Position numbers: made by a program. Source: Escherichia coli 042 (GTDB taxonomy: Bacteria; Pseudomonadota; Gammaproteobacteria; Enterobacterales; Enterobacteriaceae). Taken from it: a DNA stretch of 64,000 nucleotides. The DNA lies in assembly GCF_000027125.1 (NCBI RefSeq), contig NC_017626.1. One strand, given 5' to 3'. The stretch's first letter is position 1, and the number at the start of each line of letters is the position of its first letter. Shown one piece after another: positions 6,001 to 12,000 of the stretch.

Positions 6001-9000
6001 ATCTTGCCGAACTCCCGGCACCAGAAATAACGCAGGCTGGTTGCATGCACACGCTGATTGGCACATCTTTTTTTCCGCTGGTAAGCCTGAATTTTGGCTT
6101 TCAGGGATGCAAAAAAACGAGAAATCACCGCTGAATCCGGATCGGGATCCATGATGGTGACAGGCATATACTCAGGAAACCGTAAATCCACCCGGATTAA
6201 CGAGACGGCACGGTGTTGCACCAGGGCACTGTTGAGAATACTTTCAAAACGGGATAACCAGTAATCATTGTGTATTGGTTGATTCATGATGAGAGATCTC
6301 CGTTGATTTGGATTGACTTCACATCATTAATCGCCGCGGTAAAACTTTACGGCATCCCACCAATGAGCAACGCCAATAGCTCCTGATTAAAACGGAATGA
6401 ATCGTCCCGTAACGAAAAGATAATCCTGCACACGACAGCAAAACGTAAAACAACGGCATGAATGAGCTAAATGTCTAAAGAAAAACTGCCTTTTCACATT
6501 ATTTTTCAGCGAGTGATCATACCAGCATCCCTAACATACGAAATCGCATCGTGATCGATCGCTGATTCGCCGAACAACTGATCGAATACACCTGAATCTG
6601 CACTAACATCCTGATGGGTAACGGAAGACTAAAAAACCAGTGTTCTATTGATTGCACGGAATGCCTGTGCGCTGGCCTGACCAGTAAGCACAATTCTACG
6701 AGTAGTAAGATATCTACTCCAAAACCATGCGCAGTAGCCACCATATGTTGCCAGGGTGAAAAATAAGCTCAGAACTATAGGGGAGTAATTCCCGTTAATG
6801 TCATCGCCGTACCTCAATCAGCTCACAAACTGGCTGAAACGTTAAGCTGAGGCCTTTATTCTTCAGATGTATTTTCCGGTTTACCTGTAAATTATCTTCT
6901 GATATTTATCACATTAGTAATTGTGCTGATTATCTACATACTTCAAGGTCTGAAATATGAAGCTAACAGAAGAAAGTCTGAATCTAGTCATTGACATCCT
7001 GAATGATTTGATCTGTGAAGGAAAAATGCTGAACGATGTGGAGCGCAGATCTCTGCTCAATGCAGTTATGGCAATTACAGCGGTAAAAGAACGTTCTGTC
7101 GTATCTGTATCATCCCGAAAAGAGCAAAGTAAGAAGGAGAAGAAGGAAAGAGAGATCGATCCTCGTTTCCCAAATGCTGGTGTGGCATGGAATGAGGCAG
7201 ACGAGAATTTATTGCGAGATGTTCTGGAGGATGTACCGGACGATGAAATTGGTAAACACCTTTTCTGGCTGGCAGAGAAACTAGGGCGAACCCCGTACAG
7301 TGTAGCCTGTAAAGTCAGACAAATTAAGAAATTACCTGCAGAATGGAAGGATCAATTTCGTAAAATCTCTGACAGGATCCGTAGTTCTGGAATGTCAGTC
7401 AGTGAATATCTACAACGCCAGGGACTGTTAAGCCCAGAGTCAGGGGAAGAAAACAATCCTGTCAGTCATAACAACAATGTAGCTTAATCCTGAAGAAGAT
7501 GAACAGTTTATACTCTTTAAACTGTTCCCTTAATTTTAGAAAAACAGTTTGTGTAAGTGCATGCTCCAACATTCTGAAGGCATTATTTCTTACAATACAT
7601 CATAATCATTGGCAGATCCTCATCTGAATCAAAACACCACAACCAATCATCACACTTTTTCTGAAAAGAGCCTTATGATGAAGATAATCACCTTACGCTG
7701 AGAAAAAACACTAGGGCCAGTTAATCACCTTATCAATCTCGCCGTTACAAAATCATCCATAAGCCATTTAACAGTGTTATCGCAAACTCACAGTAAATCG
7801 CATCAGGTTACCTCAATCGGATTTGAGTTAATTCACTGGGCTTTACGTAAAGATACTTTTCTCAGGTTAACGACTAAAACACGAAAACTCAGAAAAGGTT
7901 AAACACAGGTTCAGTAAAATCGAATATCATCTTGATTGCTTAAACAGGACAGAGGGTTTTGTAGTGAGGTTAACTGATTTTAGCGATCGTAAAAAAAGGA
8001 CTAACAAATTTACTAAACTGGATGTGTATCAGACAAAGCAATGTGTGTAGCAATGCTTAATGAAAATACTTGTATGATTGTCTATGAAAGTACGTGTATA
8101 ACACTTACTGAAATGCTTAGTAAAAATACGTGTATATAGTATCATACCGACATTCTCAACTCTTCCAAACATCCATGCAGACTGAATGTTGGTTTCAGTT
8201 TTTCACGGCCAGCATGGATCTTTACTGGTCAAAAAACAGACATGTTTACTCTGGAATTATTTTTCTGATTCCGTCTTCAGAACAACAAAAACTCGTGATA
8301 ACTCTACAACAAACTATCGTAATTGGCTTCTGTAACCCCGTCACTTTTCCTAAGAAATGTGCCCCCATATAATGCGGGAGAGATAAGTCATCGTATACAG
8401 GAAACACTGCCAATCATAACATAACGTCATTCAATAATTTTTATCCATAATCAGATGAGCATATCATGATTATTGAATATTATGATATATAACTCATATG
8501 AATGTGTTATTATCTGTAAGCGTTAAGCATCACATTGCATAACCATACTAAGCTGGATAATCATCAACGTTTTTATATGTAACTCATTGAAATTAATTAT
8601 ATGTTTTTTGTGGATAATTAATATGTAATGTGAAATTAATATTTTCACATCATGAACGCCATTTAAAATTACCATCCTGAATATCATATGACAATATATT
8701 TTCACTAAAGCATGAATTGTATATATCTATTAACTCTGGAAAATTATCAGGATTCACCTTCAAATTCACTTGAATGTTACGTTTAATTTCACCCAGCAGT
8801 TCTTCATGTGTGGATTTTATTATCCCTTTCTCATAATCGATAAATACACACATGTTCTTTATGAATTCAAAACCTTTTCCTGTATACAGTTTAATGAATG
8901 CCACCAGAGCAAACATTTCAAGATATAGCCATAATGCCACGTTAGTTTTTTGCAAAGTATAAAAAATTGAATTCGCCACTCTTTTACTTATTGCTCTTTT

Positions 9001-12000
9001 ATACTGTGATCGGGCAAGATTCAGTAGCGGAAGCTCTCGTTCAATAAATGAATGTGAAAAGACTGGATAAATTGATGTAGGAAACCTTTCAGGTCTTATG
9101 ATATTTTCTATTTCCACCATAAATCTATCCATAGAAAGAAAGTCACTTTCTTTTTTTATTCTGGTATAGAGACCGCCTTTATTCCTTTCTGAGGTTTGTT
9201 TTCGTGCTATCCCCCCCAACACTTTCTCTAATTGTTTATTTATCTTCGTATAATTAAATACAACCATTCTTCTTATCATCCTCGGAAGGATAATAATATC
9301 AGTGCTTGAATCACTTGAGCGGCAATTATTATTTATCCATGCAACTTCAAGTTGCAGTATCGGAACATTAACTTTTCTGGGGTGAATATCTCTCTGATAT
9401 CGTTTTTTGTATGCGTTTTCATTAAGATATTCTCTGCTGTAGAGAAACTTATAGCAATATAATCTGATAATATCTTTTATGTAAAATTTAAATAGTTCAC
9501 CTGTAACAGATATATGTTTTCTGCTCAGTAACTCCTGTGTATTAAGCCATTCCCGTGACCGAAGCACACCCTTGTGAAAACTTTTTCTTACTTGCTTTGA
9601 AGCACGCCATTGATGTAATATTTTTGCGTCCTCAATAATTCTCTTTCCCGTTTTATTTTTTGCAGCATCTCTTACTCTATAAAATATCTCCCAGTCCAGA
9701 CTTTTGTCATATCTACTAATTATACGACAAATATTCCTGACCCGACGATTCTCTTTATTTCGCTTCCATAGCTTATAATGATCATCGCATAACCTTAAGG
9801 CATTTGCCTCATCAAATTCTGAAACAGGATTACTGCATTTTTTATTCCGACAGATACCTTTGTTTTTAGCCATACTCTTCTTCCCGTCAATGGAAAAATT
9901 TTCACACCCATATTACCTGAATGATAAACCGGATTAGTGTGATCCGGTTCAGTGAAATCAACAGGATACCGGTATGCCATTCAGCAATTCTTCCCTCTCC
10001 GCGCAAGTGAAATCATATCTGACGTTTCTTCCTGAAGAAATTCGCCAGAAAATCCTTGAACATCTCCACGGTGTTATTCATTACGAGCCCGTGATTGGCA
10101 TTATGGGTAAATCCGGCACCGGCAAAAGCAGTCTGTGTAATGCCATTTTTCAGTCCCGTATCTGCGCCACGCATCCCCTGAACGGCTGCACCCGCCAGGC
10201 TCATCGCCTCACCCTGCAGATTGGTGAACGCAGAATGACGCTGGTCGATCTGCCCGGCATTGGTGAGACACCGCAGCATGATCAGGAATACCGGGAGCTT
10301 TACCGTCAGTTACTGCCGGAACTGGATCTGATTATCTGGATCCTGCGGGCTGATGAACGTGCGTATGCTGCCGATATTGCCATGCATCAGTTTTTACTGA
10401 ATGAAGGTGCAGATCCCTCGCGTTTTCTGTTTGTTCTCAGCCATGCCGATCGCGTGTTTCCTGCTGAAGAATGGAATGCCACAGAAAAATGCCCATCCCG
10501 TCACCAGGAACTCTCACTGGCAACTGTTACAGCCTGGGTGGCAACCCTGTTCCCGTCATCATTTCCGGTACTCCCCGTTGCTGTGCCTGTCGGCTGGAAT
10601 CTTCCGGCGTTTGTGTCGCTGATGATCCACGCCCTGCCACCGCAGGCAACCAGTGCGGTTTATTCACATATCCGGGGGGAAAACCGCTCTGAACAGGCCC
10701 AGAAACACGCACAACAGACTTTTGGTGACGCCATCGGGAAAAGTTTTGACGACGCCGTTGCCCGGTTCACTTTTCCGGTCTGGATGTTACAGCTTCTGCG
10801 TAAAGCCCGGGACCGCATTATCCGCCTGCTGGAAACACTGTGGGATCGTCTGTTCTGACACACTCACGCCGACAGGATGTGTCGCTGGATTAACGAGTAT
10901 TCTTCTTTTTATGAAATCATCATTAAAAATCAGATAATTAAAGGAATATTTTTTCTGCTGCATTTTATTCCTGATTATTCAGATACGACACATCCTTTCA
11001 ACACCATGAGGCATAATAACATCATGAAATAAAAGATGTTTTCTTACGGAGTACACATCTATGTCTGATGATCGTTCCCGGCATGATCGTCTGGCGGTTC
11101 GCTTATCACTCATTATCAGCCGACTGATGGCCGGAGAATCTCTGTCACTAAAGACACTGTCAGATGAATTTGGCGTTACAGAACGTACTTTACAGCGCGA
11201 TTTTCATCAGCGTCTGGTTCACCTGGATTTAGAGTACAGAAATGGCAGGTACAGCCTCAGACGACAGAGCAGCCCGTGTGCGATCCCTGAAATGCTTTCT
11301 TTTATACAGAATACCGGGATCGCACGGATACTTCCGCTCCGGAACGGACGACTGATAACCTTTCTTACCGACAACCAGGAGCCCTCTCCCTGCCTTATCT
11401 GGCTGCCGGCGCCGGATATCACTGCAACGTTCCCCGAGTGTTTCTCGCAACTCATCCTGGCAATAAGACAGTGTATCCACATCTCTCTGATGACTGAGCG
11501 ATGGTATCCGTCACTGGAGCCCTGCCGGCTCATTTATTACAGCGGTAGCTGGTATCTGATCGCGTTACAGAAGGGAAAACTGCAGGTCTTTCCTCTGGCA
11601 GATATCAAATCAGTCAGCCTGACATCAGAACGGTTTGAACGGAGAGGCCACATCCACAGTCTGGTCGCTGAAGAGCGTTTTATCTCCGCCCTGCCACATT
11701 TCTCTTTCATCCATAAACTTATCAACACCTTTAACCTGTGATCGCCGGCCTGCCAAAGCCGTCCCGACAGGTATGGAGACAATATGTTGAACAGAAAACT
11801 AAATATACGGCTACGTCATTCCCTGAACAGTCACTGCATACCTTCCATCATTATCAATAACACCGTACGTTCATTTCAGAGGTCAGTCATGAATACCAGA
11901 GCTCTTTTTCCCCTGCTGTTCACTGTGGCATCATTCTCCGCCTCCGCCGGCAACTGGGCTGTCAAAAACGGCTGGTGTCAGACCATGACGGAAGATGGTC

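What the first reader, a model, noticed from the sequence alone, without database searches (positions are those of the whole stretch)
6288..9973. Variable cargo slot between YfjJ-like gene and YfjP-like GTPase carries two uncharacterised genes: candidate novel defence module
In the K-12 CP4-57 element, as I recall it, the slot between yfjJ and yfjP holds yfjK/yfjL/yfjM and the rnlAB toxin-antitoxin, which are phage-defence genes. Here the same backbone is present, but the slot instead contains a 176 aa ORF (+) and a convergent 407 aa ORF (-) in AT-rich DNA, plus a 1.1 kb ORF-poor spacer. Neither protein shows a family signature I recognise. A WYL regulator and the cbtA/cbeA pair lie immediately downstream. 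Position, composition and synteny all point to horizontally acquired cargo with a possible anti-phage or abortive-infection role.
Basis: partly seen in the sequence, partly recalled or inferred. Interest (0 to 1): 0.8.

Follow-up and report, generated by a model that had tools for sequence, protein, structure and literature searches.

The report
Island backbone gene, not defence cargo
The two unannotated genes are real, but they are not a paired defence cassette: the larger is a fixed backbone gene of a family of enterobacterial genomic islands, function unknown, and the smaller is a separately inserted plasmid-type gene that some records name "DNA-binding protein".

Summary
ORF176 (6957-7487, +) and ORF407 (8650-9873, -) exist, converge across a 1.16 kb gap, lie in AT-rich DNA, and match no Pfam, NCBIfam or PADLOC family.

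- **ORF407 is backbone, not cargo.** Homologues at 25-37% identity sit head-to-head with the YfjP-like GTPase in Klebsiella, Citrobacter and metagenome contigs. In E. coli, 970 of the 975 genomes carrying ORF407 keep that junction. Other E. coli islands carry very divergent alleles of the same family (376 aa, 310 aa) at the same spot. Counts for the three alleles sum to about 96% of GTPase copies.
- **ORF407 is a functional gene.** It is under purifying selection (dN/dS 0.27, and 0.05 over the first 58 codons, which hold the CCCH zinc finger). Its AlphaFold model matches no solved fold.
- **ORF176 is a separate unit.** It lies on a 1.15 kb segment that replaces 288 bp in sister islands. Its family is common on Klebsiella conjugative plasmids.
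- **The "spacer" is not empty.** It holds a 650 bp non-coding element conserved across island types.
- **Recognised defence genes sit elsewhere.** ThsB and type I R-M lie 3' of the YfjJ-like gene in related islands, outside this interval.

A defence or anti-defence role for ORF407 is not excluded, but nothing here points to it specifically.

The parts
5556..6287 (-). Gp2/YfjJ-like (HUH Rep-like) gene, the left flank of the interval
   Evidence: ORF. Annotated 'inovirus Gp2 family protein'. PHROG replication-initiator hits. 32% aa identity to K-12 YfjJ.
6288..6464 (.). Conserved upstream region of the Gp2-like gene; the homology block 5518-6464 is shared at about 89% by sister islands
   Evidence: blastn segment map.
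6465..7617 (+). ORF176 segment: 1153 bp that replaces a roughly 288 bp stretch found in sister islands. Clean junctions, no flanking repeats.
   Evidence: Found at 741 places in 676 E. coli genomes, 657 of them at 99% identity or more.
6957..7487 (+). ORF176: all-helical protein with an N-terminal helical pair, a Lys/Glu-rich low-confidence linker and a C-terminal five-helix domain. It belongs to a family that some NCBI records name 'DNA-binding protein'.
   Evidence: 2960 plasmid records, mostly Klebsiella conjugative plasmids. Sits in the same small-gene cluster as an Hha-domain gene, one gene apart, on an IncFIB plasmid. Only weak HTH-type PHROG hits.
7501..7527 (.). Perfect 10 bp-stem hairpin just after the ORF176 stop, scored as terminator-like on both strands
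7618..8267 (.). 650 bp unannotated non-coding element, conserved at 73-94% in islands that carry any of the three ORF407-family alleles
   Evidence: No Rfam match. No ORF of 100 aa or more. Not found in the Klebsiella/Citrobacter loci or in K-12.
8063..8137 (+). Short direct repeats (AAAATACGTGTAT-like, three copies) inside the conserved element; copy number differs between islands
   Evidence: A 13 bp unit x5 in L016. Indels at this spot in alignment A3.
8268..9898 (-). ORF407 allele cassette: the stretch replaced by unrelated-looking DNA in islands that carry the 376 aa or 310 aa alleles, between conserved flanks
   Evidence: ORF407 is 99.3% identical between the window and L015, while the flanking GTPase is 94% and Gp2 90% identical.
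8650..9873 (-). ORF407: orphan-family protein with an N-terminal CCCH zinc finger (C8, C13, C29, H32) and a C-terminal domain of about 300 aa with no recognisable fold
9899..9973 (.). Conserved half of the divergent intergenic region (95-97% identical between allele classes), presumably the GTPase-operon promoter
9908..9917 (+). CCATATTACC: a 10 nt motif (CYATATTACC) that barely varies (one locus ends T for C) in the eight intergenic regions compared across genera
   Evidence: Alignment A4. Single occurrence in the window.
9974..10858 (+). YfjP-like GTPase, the right flank and constant neighbour of the ORF407 family
   Evidence: The junction with ORF407 is intact in 970 genomes.

Best explanation
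The interval is not one cargo slot. It holds three independent things.

1. **ORF407** is the local allele of a small orphan protein family. That family is a fixed backbone component of a group of enterobacterial integrative islands. It always sits head-to-head with the YfjP-like GTPase operon, and outside E. coli it sits just upstream of alpA and the YfjJ/Gp2-like Rep gene.
2. **A 650 bp non-coding element** with short direct repeats is also backbone.
3. **A 1.15 kb segment carrying ORF176** was inserted recently. ORF176 belongs to a family, named 'DNA-binding protein' in some records, that is otherwise common on Klebsiella conjugative plasmids.

My best guess at mechanism is as follows. ORF407 is a zinc-finger nucleic-acid-binding protein that serves the island itself, controlling or assisting the alpA/Rep (excision-replication) side or the divergent promoter region. 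It comes in exchangeable specificity classes, as phage immunity regions do. Its persistently AT-rich coding DNA probably keeps it H-NS-silenced in the resting island. ORF176 acts separately as a small DNA-binding or nucleoid-associated regulator.

**Shown:** position, synteny, allele classes, recombination boundaries, purifying selection, conserved Zn ligands, base composition, and the distributions.

**Inferred:** DNA binding, the regulatory or life-cycle role, and H-NS silencing.
For: **Synteny.** Five loci found through distant homologues show WYL<-GTPase<-|->ORF407-like->AlpA->YfjJ-like, with a gap of about 95-105 bp to the GTPase gene.

**E. coli counts.**
- ORF407 is in 975 genomes, and 970 of them keep the ORF407-GTPase junction.
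- The GTPase occupies 2506 places.
- Places for the three alleles: ORF407 1068, the 376 aa allele 516, the 310 aa allele 816. The sum is 2400, about 96% of GTPase places.

**Same family at the same position.** An HMM of the ORF407 family aligns the 376 aa protein end to end (E about 1e-23) and the 310 aa protein partially (E about 1e-10). The shared N-terminal and C-terminal motifs are visible.

**Sharp allele boundaries** at 8267/8268 and 9898/9899 lie between conserved flanks. ORF407 is 99.3% identical between islands whose flanks differ by 6-10%.

**Real gene.** dN/dS is 0.27 overall and 0.05 over codons 1-58, which hold the zinc finger. It is 0.21 for the 376 aa allele.

**Zinc finger.** C8, C13, C29 and H32 are invariant in 14 sequences. 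The model shows two short strands followed by helices across these residues.

**Composition.** Homologues are 28-34% GC next to 45-54% GC GTPase genes in the E. coli, Klebsiella, Citrobacter and metagenome loci.

**Distribution.** ORF407 is absent from the plasmid and phage collections.

**ORF176 independence.**

**Where defence genes are.** Recognised defence genes in sister islands lie 3' of the YfjJ-like gene: ThsB, type I R-M and an annotated restriction endonuclease.
Against: - No DNA-binding fold, and indeed no known fold at all, was recognised in the C-terminal 300 residues. At 400 aa the protein is large for a simple regulator.
- The intergenic motif CYATATTACC is the same in all allele classes, so no allele-specific operator is evident on the GTPase side.
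- Deep allelic classes swapped by recombination are equally the hallmark of defence, anti-defence and exclusion genes.
- In E. coli the alpA gene expected downstream is missing, so a role tied to alpA cannot hold universally.
- There are no expression or binding data.
Confidence: 0.45

Rival explanations
1. ORF407 and its 376 aa and 310 aa alleles are a single-gene anti-phage (abortive infection) or anti-defence determinant. It is carried at a fixed position of the island backbone and diversifies under an arms race. The zinc finger senses or binds foreign nucleic acid, and the unknown C-terminal domain is the effector.
For: - Deep allelic classes are exchanged between conserved flanks.
- AT-rich composition is typical of horizontally mobile immunity genes.
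- The island also carries antirestriction, RadC/JAB and DUF932 genes.
- The family has no known fold or domain, so it would have escaped existing catalogues.
Against: - No PADLOC hit for any allele.
- The alleles are homologous to each other rather than unrelated systems, unlike known MGE defence hotspots.
- Alleles are under ordinary purifying selection (dN/dS 0.21-0.27), although one 58-codon block reached 1.10.
- Recognised defence genes in these islands sit elsewhere, 3' of the YfjJ-like gene.
- No conserved nuclease, NTPase, TIR or other effector motif was identified, and no Pfam family matched.
Confidence: 0.25
2. ORF407 and the YfjP-like GTPase form a functional pair. Examples would be a regulator of the GTPase operon, or a partner or antagonist of the GTPase. 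That would explain why they are never separated.
For: - The head-to-head arrangement with a gap of about 100 bp persists at 25-37% protein identity.
- The junction is intact in 970 of 975 E. coli genomes.
- The shared intergenic region carries an invariant motif.
Against: - GTPase sequences do not co-vary with the ORF407 allele class. The window GTPase is about 94-95% identical to GTPases next to both the 407 and the 376 alleles.
- The whole backbone is syntenic, so adjacency alone does not single out the GTPase.
- The most distant homologue lies next to an integrase with no GTPase, though on a short contig.
Confidence: 0.15
3. One reading: ORF176 plus ORF407 are a two-gene, horizontally acquired defence cassette occupying a variable cargo slot equivalent to the K-12 yfjJ-yfjP slot.
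For: - The genes are convergent and lie in AT-rich DNA.
- Both are uncharacterised.
- The K-12 slot does hold AbpAB and RnlAB.
Against: - The two genes have independent distributions.
- They are separated by a backbone non-coding element and a terminator-like hairpin.
- ORF407 is positionally fixed.
- The slot is not homologous to the K-12 slot.
Confidence: 0.03
4. The interval is decaying junk. The ORFs would be chance or degenerating reading frames in AT-rich remnant DNA.
For: - There is a long ORF-poor spacer.
- IS elements lie nearby.
- alpA is absent from its expected place.
Against: - Full-length homologues persist at 25-37% identity with 22 invariant residues.
- dN/dS is 0.27, and 0.05 over the zinc-finger codons.
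- ORF176 has more than 60 homologues with 26 invariant positions.
- The spacer element is conserved across island types.
Confidence: 0.02

Closest known systems
K-12 CP4-57 yfjJ-yfjP interval (abpB/abpA, yfjM, rnlA/rnlB)
   Same: It is flanked by a YfjJ/Gp2-family gene and a YfjP-family GTPase. Further on lie WYL, DUF932, antirestriction, RadC and CbeA/CbtA-type genes.
   Different: - The flanking proteins are only 32% and 36% identical.
- yfjJ points towards yfjP in K-12 and away from the GTPase here.
- K-12 has no ORF407-family gene and no copy of the 650 bp element.
- In both layouts the variable or defence genes lie 3' of yfjJ. In the window-type island that is outside the flagged interval.
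Defence hotspots inside P2 prophages and P4 satellites (Rousset et al. 2022, PMC9122126), and mobile-element defence islands of E. coli (Hochhauser et al. 2023, PMC10121019)
   Same: A locus inside a mobile element is bounded by conserved genes, and its content differs sharply between otherwise similar elements.
   Different: In those hotspots the alternatives are unrelated systems. Here the three alternatives are homologous to one another and none matches a known defence family.
Immunity regions of temperate phages (mosaic repressor/operator cassettes); an analogy from general knowledge
   Same: Deeply divergent alleles of one gene family sit at a fixed position beside a divergent promoter region. 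They are exchanged by recombination in conserved flanks.
   Different: - No HTH repressor fold was found.
- The protein is about 400 aa.
- No allele-specific operators were identified.
- The shared intergenic motif is the same in all alleles.
HNH / treble-clef zinc-finger nucleases (the automatic name on some UniProt family members)
   Same: The cysteine/histidine spacing is C-x4-C-x15-C-x2-H, with a conserved 'AN..RLC..HY' stretch that resembles the second half of an HNH motif. The model shows strand-strand-helix across it.
   Different: - No Pfam HNH family matches any of the 14 members, even at E<=10 for the query.
- No conserved histidine stands where the catalytic His would be.
Plasmid 'DNA-binding protein' WP_004152104 family of Klebsiella IncFIB-type plasmids
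   Same: ORF176 is about 52% identical over 89% of its length, with the same length class and conserved core 'DPRFP.AG..W...LFWLAEKLGRTPYSVACK'.
   Different: Here the gene is chromosomal, inside an island, on a 1.15 kb insert with a terminator-like hairpin of its own just downstream. Its DNA-binding activity is annotated, not demonstrated, and no Pfam or NCBIfam model supports it.

Membership tests
Known anti-phage defence systems (PADLOC-DB 2.0) | Significant match of a component protein to a defence-system HMM | tested here: not met
   No families at E<=0.1 for ORF176 or ORF407. None at E<=0.01 for the 376 aa, 310 aa and 269 aa proteins or the Klebsiella homologue. The library dates from 2023, so newer systems are not covered.
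Two-gene module (operon-like or co-inherited pair) | The two genes co-occur across genomes and elements | tested here: not met
   ORF407 occurs without ORF176 in L015, L018, L023 and all non-E. coli loci. ORF176 relatives occur without ORF407 on 2960 plasmids and on Klebsiella chromosomes. ORF407 has no plasmid or phage hits.
K-12 CP4-57 yfjJ-yfjP cargo slot | Orthologous flanks in the same orientation, with unrelated cargo between them | tested here: not met
   Flanks are 32-36% identical in protein. yfjJ is in the opposite orientation. The content is always a member of one family.
Backbone gene of YfjP-GTPase/CbtA-type islands (positional orthologue) | Same position and orientation relative to conserved backbone genes across distant hosts | tested here: met
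   Divergent from the GTPase with a gap of about 95-105 bp in five of the six loci found through distant homologues, and in seven of seven E. coli loci, where the gap is about 100-185 bp. 970 of 975 E. coli genomes keep the junction.
HNH endonuclease (automatic UniProt name of some members) | Match to an HNH profile, and a catalytic His-Asn-His/Asn triad in a beta-beta-alpha-metal fold | tested here: not met
   No Pfam match for any member. The Zn ligands and an Asn are conserved, but no histidine is conserved at the catalytic position. The fold over residues 1-45 is compatible with a treble clef.
Reverse transcriptase (UniRef name of the Klebsiella michiganensis homologue) | RVT domain | tested here: not met
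   No precomputed Pfam domain on P0016. No Pfam match in the alignment scan.
AlpA/excisionase gene in the spacer (expected from synteny) | Detectable AlpA-like coding remnant between ORF407 and the Gp2-like gene | tested here: not met
   tblastn with six AlpA proteins gave only hits at E>=0.5. An AlpA HMM gave negative scores in all six frames of five island variants.
Helix-turn-helix DNA-binding protein (ORF176) | Match to an HTH or DNA-binding profile or fold | tested here: inconclusive
   Only weak hits were found: PHROG 323 'transcriptional regulator' at E 0.002, PHROG 31591 'HTH DNA binding protein' at E 0.077, and Pfam NikA-like at E 0.025. Foldseek against the PDB found nothing with E<=0.001. 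'DNA-binding protein' is the name in some NCBI records.
Known structured RNA in the spacer | Rfam covariance-model match | tested here: not met
   The only hit in 5400-11200 at E<=1 is a chance snoRNA match inside the GTPase gene.

The most novel reading that the evidence does not exclude
The ORF407 family, with its three deep allele classes present in roughly a third of complete E. coli genomes, is a previously unrecognised single-gene immunity or counter-immunity determinant with a new fold. It would be carried at a fixed 'allele-swap' position of a widespread island backbone and normally kept silent by its AT-rich composition. This would be a defence or anti-defence locus that diversifies by exchanging homologous alleles rather than by exchanging unrelated systems.
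Probability: 0.2. Interest if true: 0.6.

Novelty: new member of a known kind. Interest (0 to 1): 0.3.

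Why it matters
**For genome scanning.** The result is a caution. Synteny with a known defence hotspot was inferred from family-level similarity of the flanks, but gene orientation and distant comparisons show that the hotspot of this island type lies on the other side of the YfjJ-like gene.

**For biology.** What remains is modest but real.
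- An orphan protein family sits at a fixed backbone position in islands present in roughly a third of complete E. coli genomes. It has no Pfam or NCBIfam family and no detectable structural relative among solved structures.
- It occurs in three allele classes that appear to be exchanged by recombination.
- It stays at about 30% GC in the E. coli, Klebsiella, Citrobacter and metagenome loci examined.
- A conserved 650 bp non-coding element with repeats, and a near-invariant 10 nt promoter-region motif, lie next to it.

These islands carry virulence and competition cargo; here that cargo is the microcin H47 system. Knowing what controls them would be useful. Still, uncharacterised backbone genes on islands are common, and nothing here forces a surprising conclusion.

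Tried and rejected
1. **alpA pseudogene in the spacer.** Several AlpA queries gave collinear weak tblastn hits around 8147-8228 (-), and I read the frames by eye. An AlpA HMM then scored negative in all frames of five island variants. Rejected.
2. **Known RNA in the spacer.** No Rfam match. Tandem Repeats Finder found nothing in the window's spacer.
3. **Sequence search of solved structures.** Profiles of both families found nothing meaningful.
4. **Fold searches.**
   - Foldseek against AFDB50 returned only family members.
   - Foldseek against the PDB for ORF176 gave nothing.
5. **Wider homology searches.** phmmer against 1.84 billion representatives and a profile search with the divergent alleles added did not widen the family. 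They found no domain fusions.
6. **YfjH or other K-12 CP4-57/CP4-44 genes as hidden family members.** There was no HMM or tblastn hit.
7. **Myb/SANT-like reading of ORF176.** I guessed this from the sequence, but no profile supports it, so I dropped it.
8. **Literature.** Searches for the protein accessions and for the backbone gene names found no paper that treats these genes.
9. **Flanking repeats at the ORF176 segment junctions.** None were found.

Full report
**Observation.**

The described features are present at the stated coordinates. The interval 6288-9973 runs from the start codon of a Gp2/YfjJ-like gene (5556-6287, minus strand) to the start of a GTPase gene (9974-10858, plus strand).

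Within it lie a 176 aa ORF (6957-7487, +) and a convergent 407 aa ORF (8650-9873, -). They are separated by 1162 bp in which the longest ORF is 80 aa.

GC content falls to 29-38% between 7501 and 10000, against about 50-55% on either side. ORF407 is 33% GC, the spacer 34% and ORF176 43%.

Neither protein matches PADLOC, NCBIfam or Pfam. RefSeq calls both hypothetical in four genomes that are 100% identical over 5500-11000.

Those genomes show that the window is the microcin H47 island next to cadC.

**The slot is not the K-12 slot.**

The window's GTPase is 36% identical to YfjP, and its Gp2-like protein is 32% identical to YfjJ. In K-12, yfjJ is on the same strand as yfjP and points towards it. 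Here it is on the opposite strand and points away. Neither an ORF407 relative nor the spacer element exists in CP4-57 or CP4-44. This is therefore a distantly related island type with a different layout.

**ORF407 is backbone.**

The family is tiny. A word-indexed search of 5.8 billion proteins gave 16 hits. phmmer against 1.84 billion representatives gave 25 hits, of which about ten are full length. None has a Pfam domain.

I looked up the genomic context of six distant homologues (23-37% identity). Five show the same arrangement: WYL regulator and GTPase on one strand, then a gap of about 95-105 bp, then the ORF407 homologue on the other strand, followed by alpA and a YfjJ/Gp2-like gene. These five are Klebsiella michiganensis, Citrobacter and three metagenome contigs. 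The sixth and most distant lies beside an integrase on a short contig cut by an IS.

In E. coli complete genomes the counts are:
- ORF407 DNA is present in 975 of 5426 genomes, at several chromosomal sites and up to four times per genome.
- A probe spanning the ORF407-GTPase junction is intact in 970 genomes.
- The GTPase itself occurs at 2506 places.

At GTPase copies that lack ORF407, I found a 376 aa or a 310 aa gene in the same divergent position. An HMM of the ORF407 family aligns the 376 aa protein end to end (E about 1e-23) and the 310 aa protein over its central part (E about 1e-10); the latter lacks the zinc finger (motifs).

These two alleles occupy 516 and 816 places. Together with ORF407's 1068 places, the three alleles sum to about 96% of GTPase places. 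I could not verify adjacency place by place. However, every one of the seven E. coli loci I opened had a family member next to the GTPase.

**Allele cassette and selection.**

A blastn map of four sister islands against the window gave these blocks:

| Window segment | Status in sister islands |
|---|---|
| 5518-6464 | conserved, about 89% |
| 6465-7617 | unique to the window type |
| 7618-8267 | conserved, 73-94% |
| 8268-9898 | replaced in islands with other alleles |
| 9899 onward | conserved, 95-97% |

ORF407 differs by 8 of 1221 nt between the window and L015. Their GTPase genes differ by 51 of 882 nt and their Gp2 genes by 73 of 729 nt, so alleles move between backbones by recombination.

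Against a 91%-identical allele, dN/dS is 0.27 overall and 0.05 for codons 1-58. The 376 aa allele gives 0.21. The gene is therefore functional and constrained.

Homologues in the Klebsiella, Citrobacter and metagenome loci are all 28-34% GC next to 45-54% GC GTPase genes. The AT-richness is thus a long-standing property of the gene, not a mark of recent arrival in E. coli.

**What ORF407 looks like.**

Fourteen aligned sequences keep C8, C13, C29 and H32 invariant (C-x4-C-x15-C-x2-H). Also invariant are W109, R147, E176, P197, Y236, R293, E319, Y385 and N386.

The AlphaFold model has mean pLDDT 78.8 and pTM 0.67. It shows two short strands and helices over the zinc ligands, a poorly predicted helical linker (residues 50-100), and a well-predicted alpha-rich domain of about 300 residues with a few strands.

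- Foldseek against AFDB50 returns only uncharacterised Enterobacterales proteins of the same family, from Escherichia, Klebsiella, Salmonella, Serratia, Providencia and Lelliottia.
- A few of those carry automatic names, 'HNH endonuclease' or 'reverse transcriptase'. No profile supports either name, and no histidine is conserved where an HNH catalytic residue would be.

**ORF176 is a separate unit.**

The 1153 bp segment 6465-7617 replaces a stretch of about 288 bp in sister islands, with clean junctions. A perfect 10 bp-stem hairpin follows the stop codon. The segment is at 741 places in 676 genomes, at 99% identity or more in 657 of them. It is thus much more uniform than its surroundings, which fits recent spread.

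The distribution of its relatives is as follows:
- Relatives at 50-63% identity are named 'DNA-binding protein' in some NCBI records.
- They occur in 2960 plasmid records, mostly Klebsiella and mostly conjugative plasmids. On one IncFIB plasmid the gene lies in a cluster of small genes that includes an Hha-domain gene.
- They also occur at a chromosomal site in Klebsiella oxytoca that neighbours varying prophages or islands.
- ORF407, by contrast, has no plasmid or phage hits.

The ORF176 model is all-helical: two N-terminal helices, a low-confidence Lys/Glu-rich linker and a five-helix C-terminal part. Support for an HTH is weak.

**The spacer.**

Of the 1162 bp, the last 130 bp of the ORF176 segment and the 380 bp downstream of ORF407 belong to the variable pieces. 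Positions 7618-8267, however, are conserved in islands of all three allele classes and are unannotated. This stretch holds short direct repeats whose number varies between islands. It has no Rfam match and no detectable alpA remnant.

I did not establish what it is. An origin or binding-site array for the neighbouring Rep-like protein is a reasonable guess, not a result.

On the other side, the ORF407-GTPase intergenic region carries the motif CYATATTACC (9908-9917). It barely varies in eight loci from several genera; one locus ends T for C.

**Where the defence cargo is.**

In sister and distant islands the variable region with recognised defence genes lies 3' of the YfjJ-like gene, on the far side from the GTPase:
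- ThsB-type TIR proteins in L017 and L014 (PADLOC E 1e-128 and 1e-141).
- A type I R-M system in Klebsiella.
- An annotated restriction endonuclease in three E. coli islands.

This agrees with K-12, where the AbpAB and RnlAB genes are also 3' of yfjJ. In the window that side (below 5556) is occupied by IS600 and IS30 remains.

**Explanation and rivals.**

The structural conclusion has good support: ORF407 is a fixed backbone gene in exchangeable alleles, ORF176 is an independent insert, and part of the spacer is backbone.

The function of ORF407 is not established. I favour a zinc-finger nucleic-acid-binding protein that works for the island, either as a regulator or as an accessory of the alpA/Rep side or the divergent promoters. 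It would come in specificity classes like a phage immunity region and would be silenced by H-NS through its AT-rich DNA.

The main rival is a single-gene defence or anti-defence determinant at a fixed position. The allele-swap pattern fits this equally well, while the absence of defence-family matches and of an effector motif argues only weakly against it. A specific partnership with the GTPase is possible, but the GTPase does not co-vary with the allele class. The two-gene defence cassette and the 'junk' readings are contradicted by the data.

**Novelty.**

Both families are uncharacterised, and ORF407 has no recognisable fold. The setting is nonetheless an ordinary genomic-island backbone. 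I rate it a new member of a known kind, with modest interest.

Noticed in passing
window 7618-8267: A 650 bp unannotated non-coding element, conserved at 73-94% in E. coli islands of all three allele classes. It contains short direct repeats (8063-8137) whose copy number varies between islands. It may be an origin or protein-binding array for the adjacent Rep-like gene.
   Followed up: partly
window 9908-9917: The 10 nt motif CCATATTACC (CYATATTACC), about 60 bp upstream of the GTPase start, barely varies in eight loci from E. coli, Klebsiella, Citrobacter and metagenome contigs (one locus ends T for C). The neighbouring ORF407-family proteins in those loci are as little as 17-37% identical to ORF407.
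   Followed up: partly
window 9974-10858 (residues 185-289 of the GTPase): The C-terminal half of the YfjP-like GTPase matches the PADLOC LeoBC model at E 6e-7. LeoBC is a component of the dynamin-like LeoABC candidate defence system.
   Followed up: no
L017 2308-3012; L014 12063-13034; L003 13706-21204; L015 5063-5941: In related islands the genes 3' of the YfjJ-like gene are variable. They include ThsB-type TIR proteins, a type I R-M system and an annotated restriction endonuclease. That side, not the flagged interval, looks like the defence hotspot of this island type.
   Followed up: partly
window 1-5550: The region 3' of the Gp2-like gene in the window holds IS600 and IS30 remains, an acyltransferase gene (2103-2555) and a small H-NS-family gene (about 828-1046, by the annotation of the identical genome). 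If a cargo slot existed here, IS activity has scrambled it.
   Followed up: no
L016 8751-9560 (+) and 9557-10489 (-): The 310 aa allele lacks the zinc finger. It is accompanied by a convergent 269 aa gene that overlaps it by 4 nt. That gene has no PADLOC match and no similarity to ORF176. This pair occurs at about 816 places in E. coli.
   Followed up: partly
L006-L009 8001-8492: In Klebsiella oxytoca the ORF176 homologue sits at a fixed chromosomal site whose upstream neighbour varies: prophage tail genes, folD, or the DUF4942 end of a CbtA-type island. The site therefore borders an integration hotspot.
   Followed up: no
window about 17900-18100 (L001 32443-32557): An integrase fragment lies at the cadC-proximal end of the island, after the DUF4942 gene, by the annotation of the identical genome. 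I did not analyse the island's integration site or ends.
   Followed up: no
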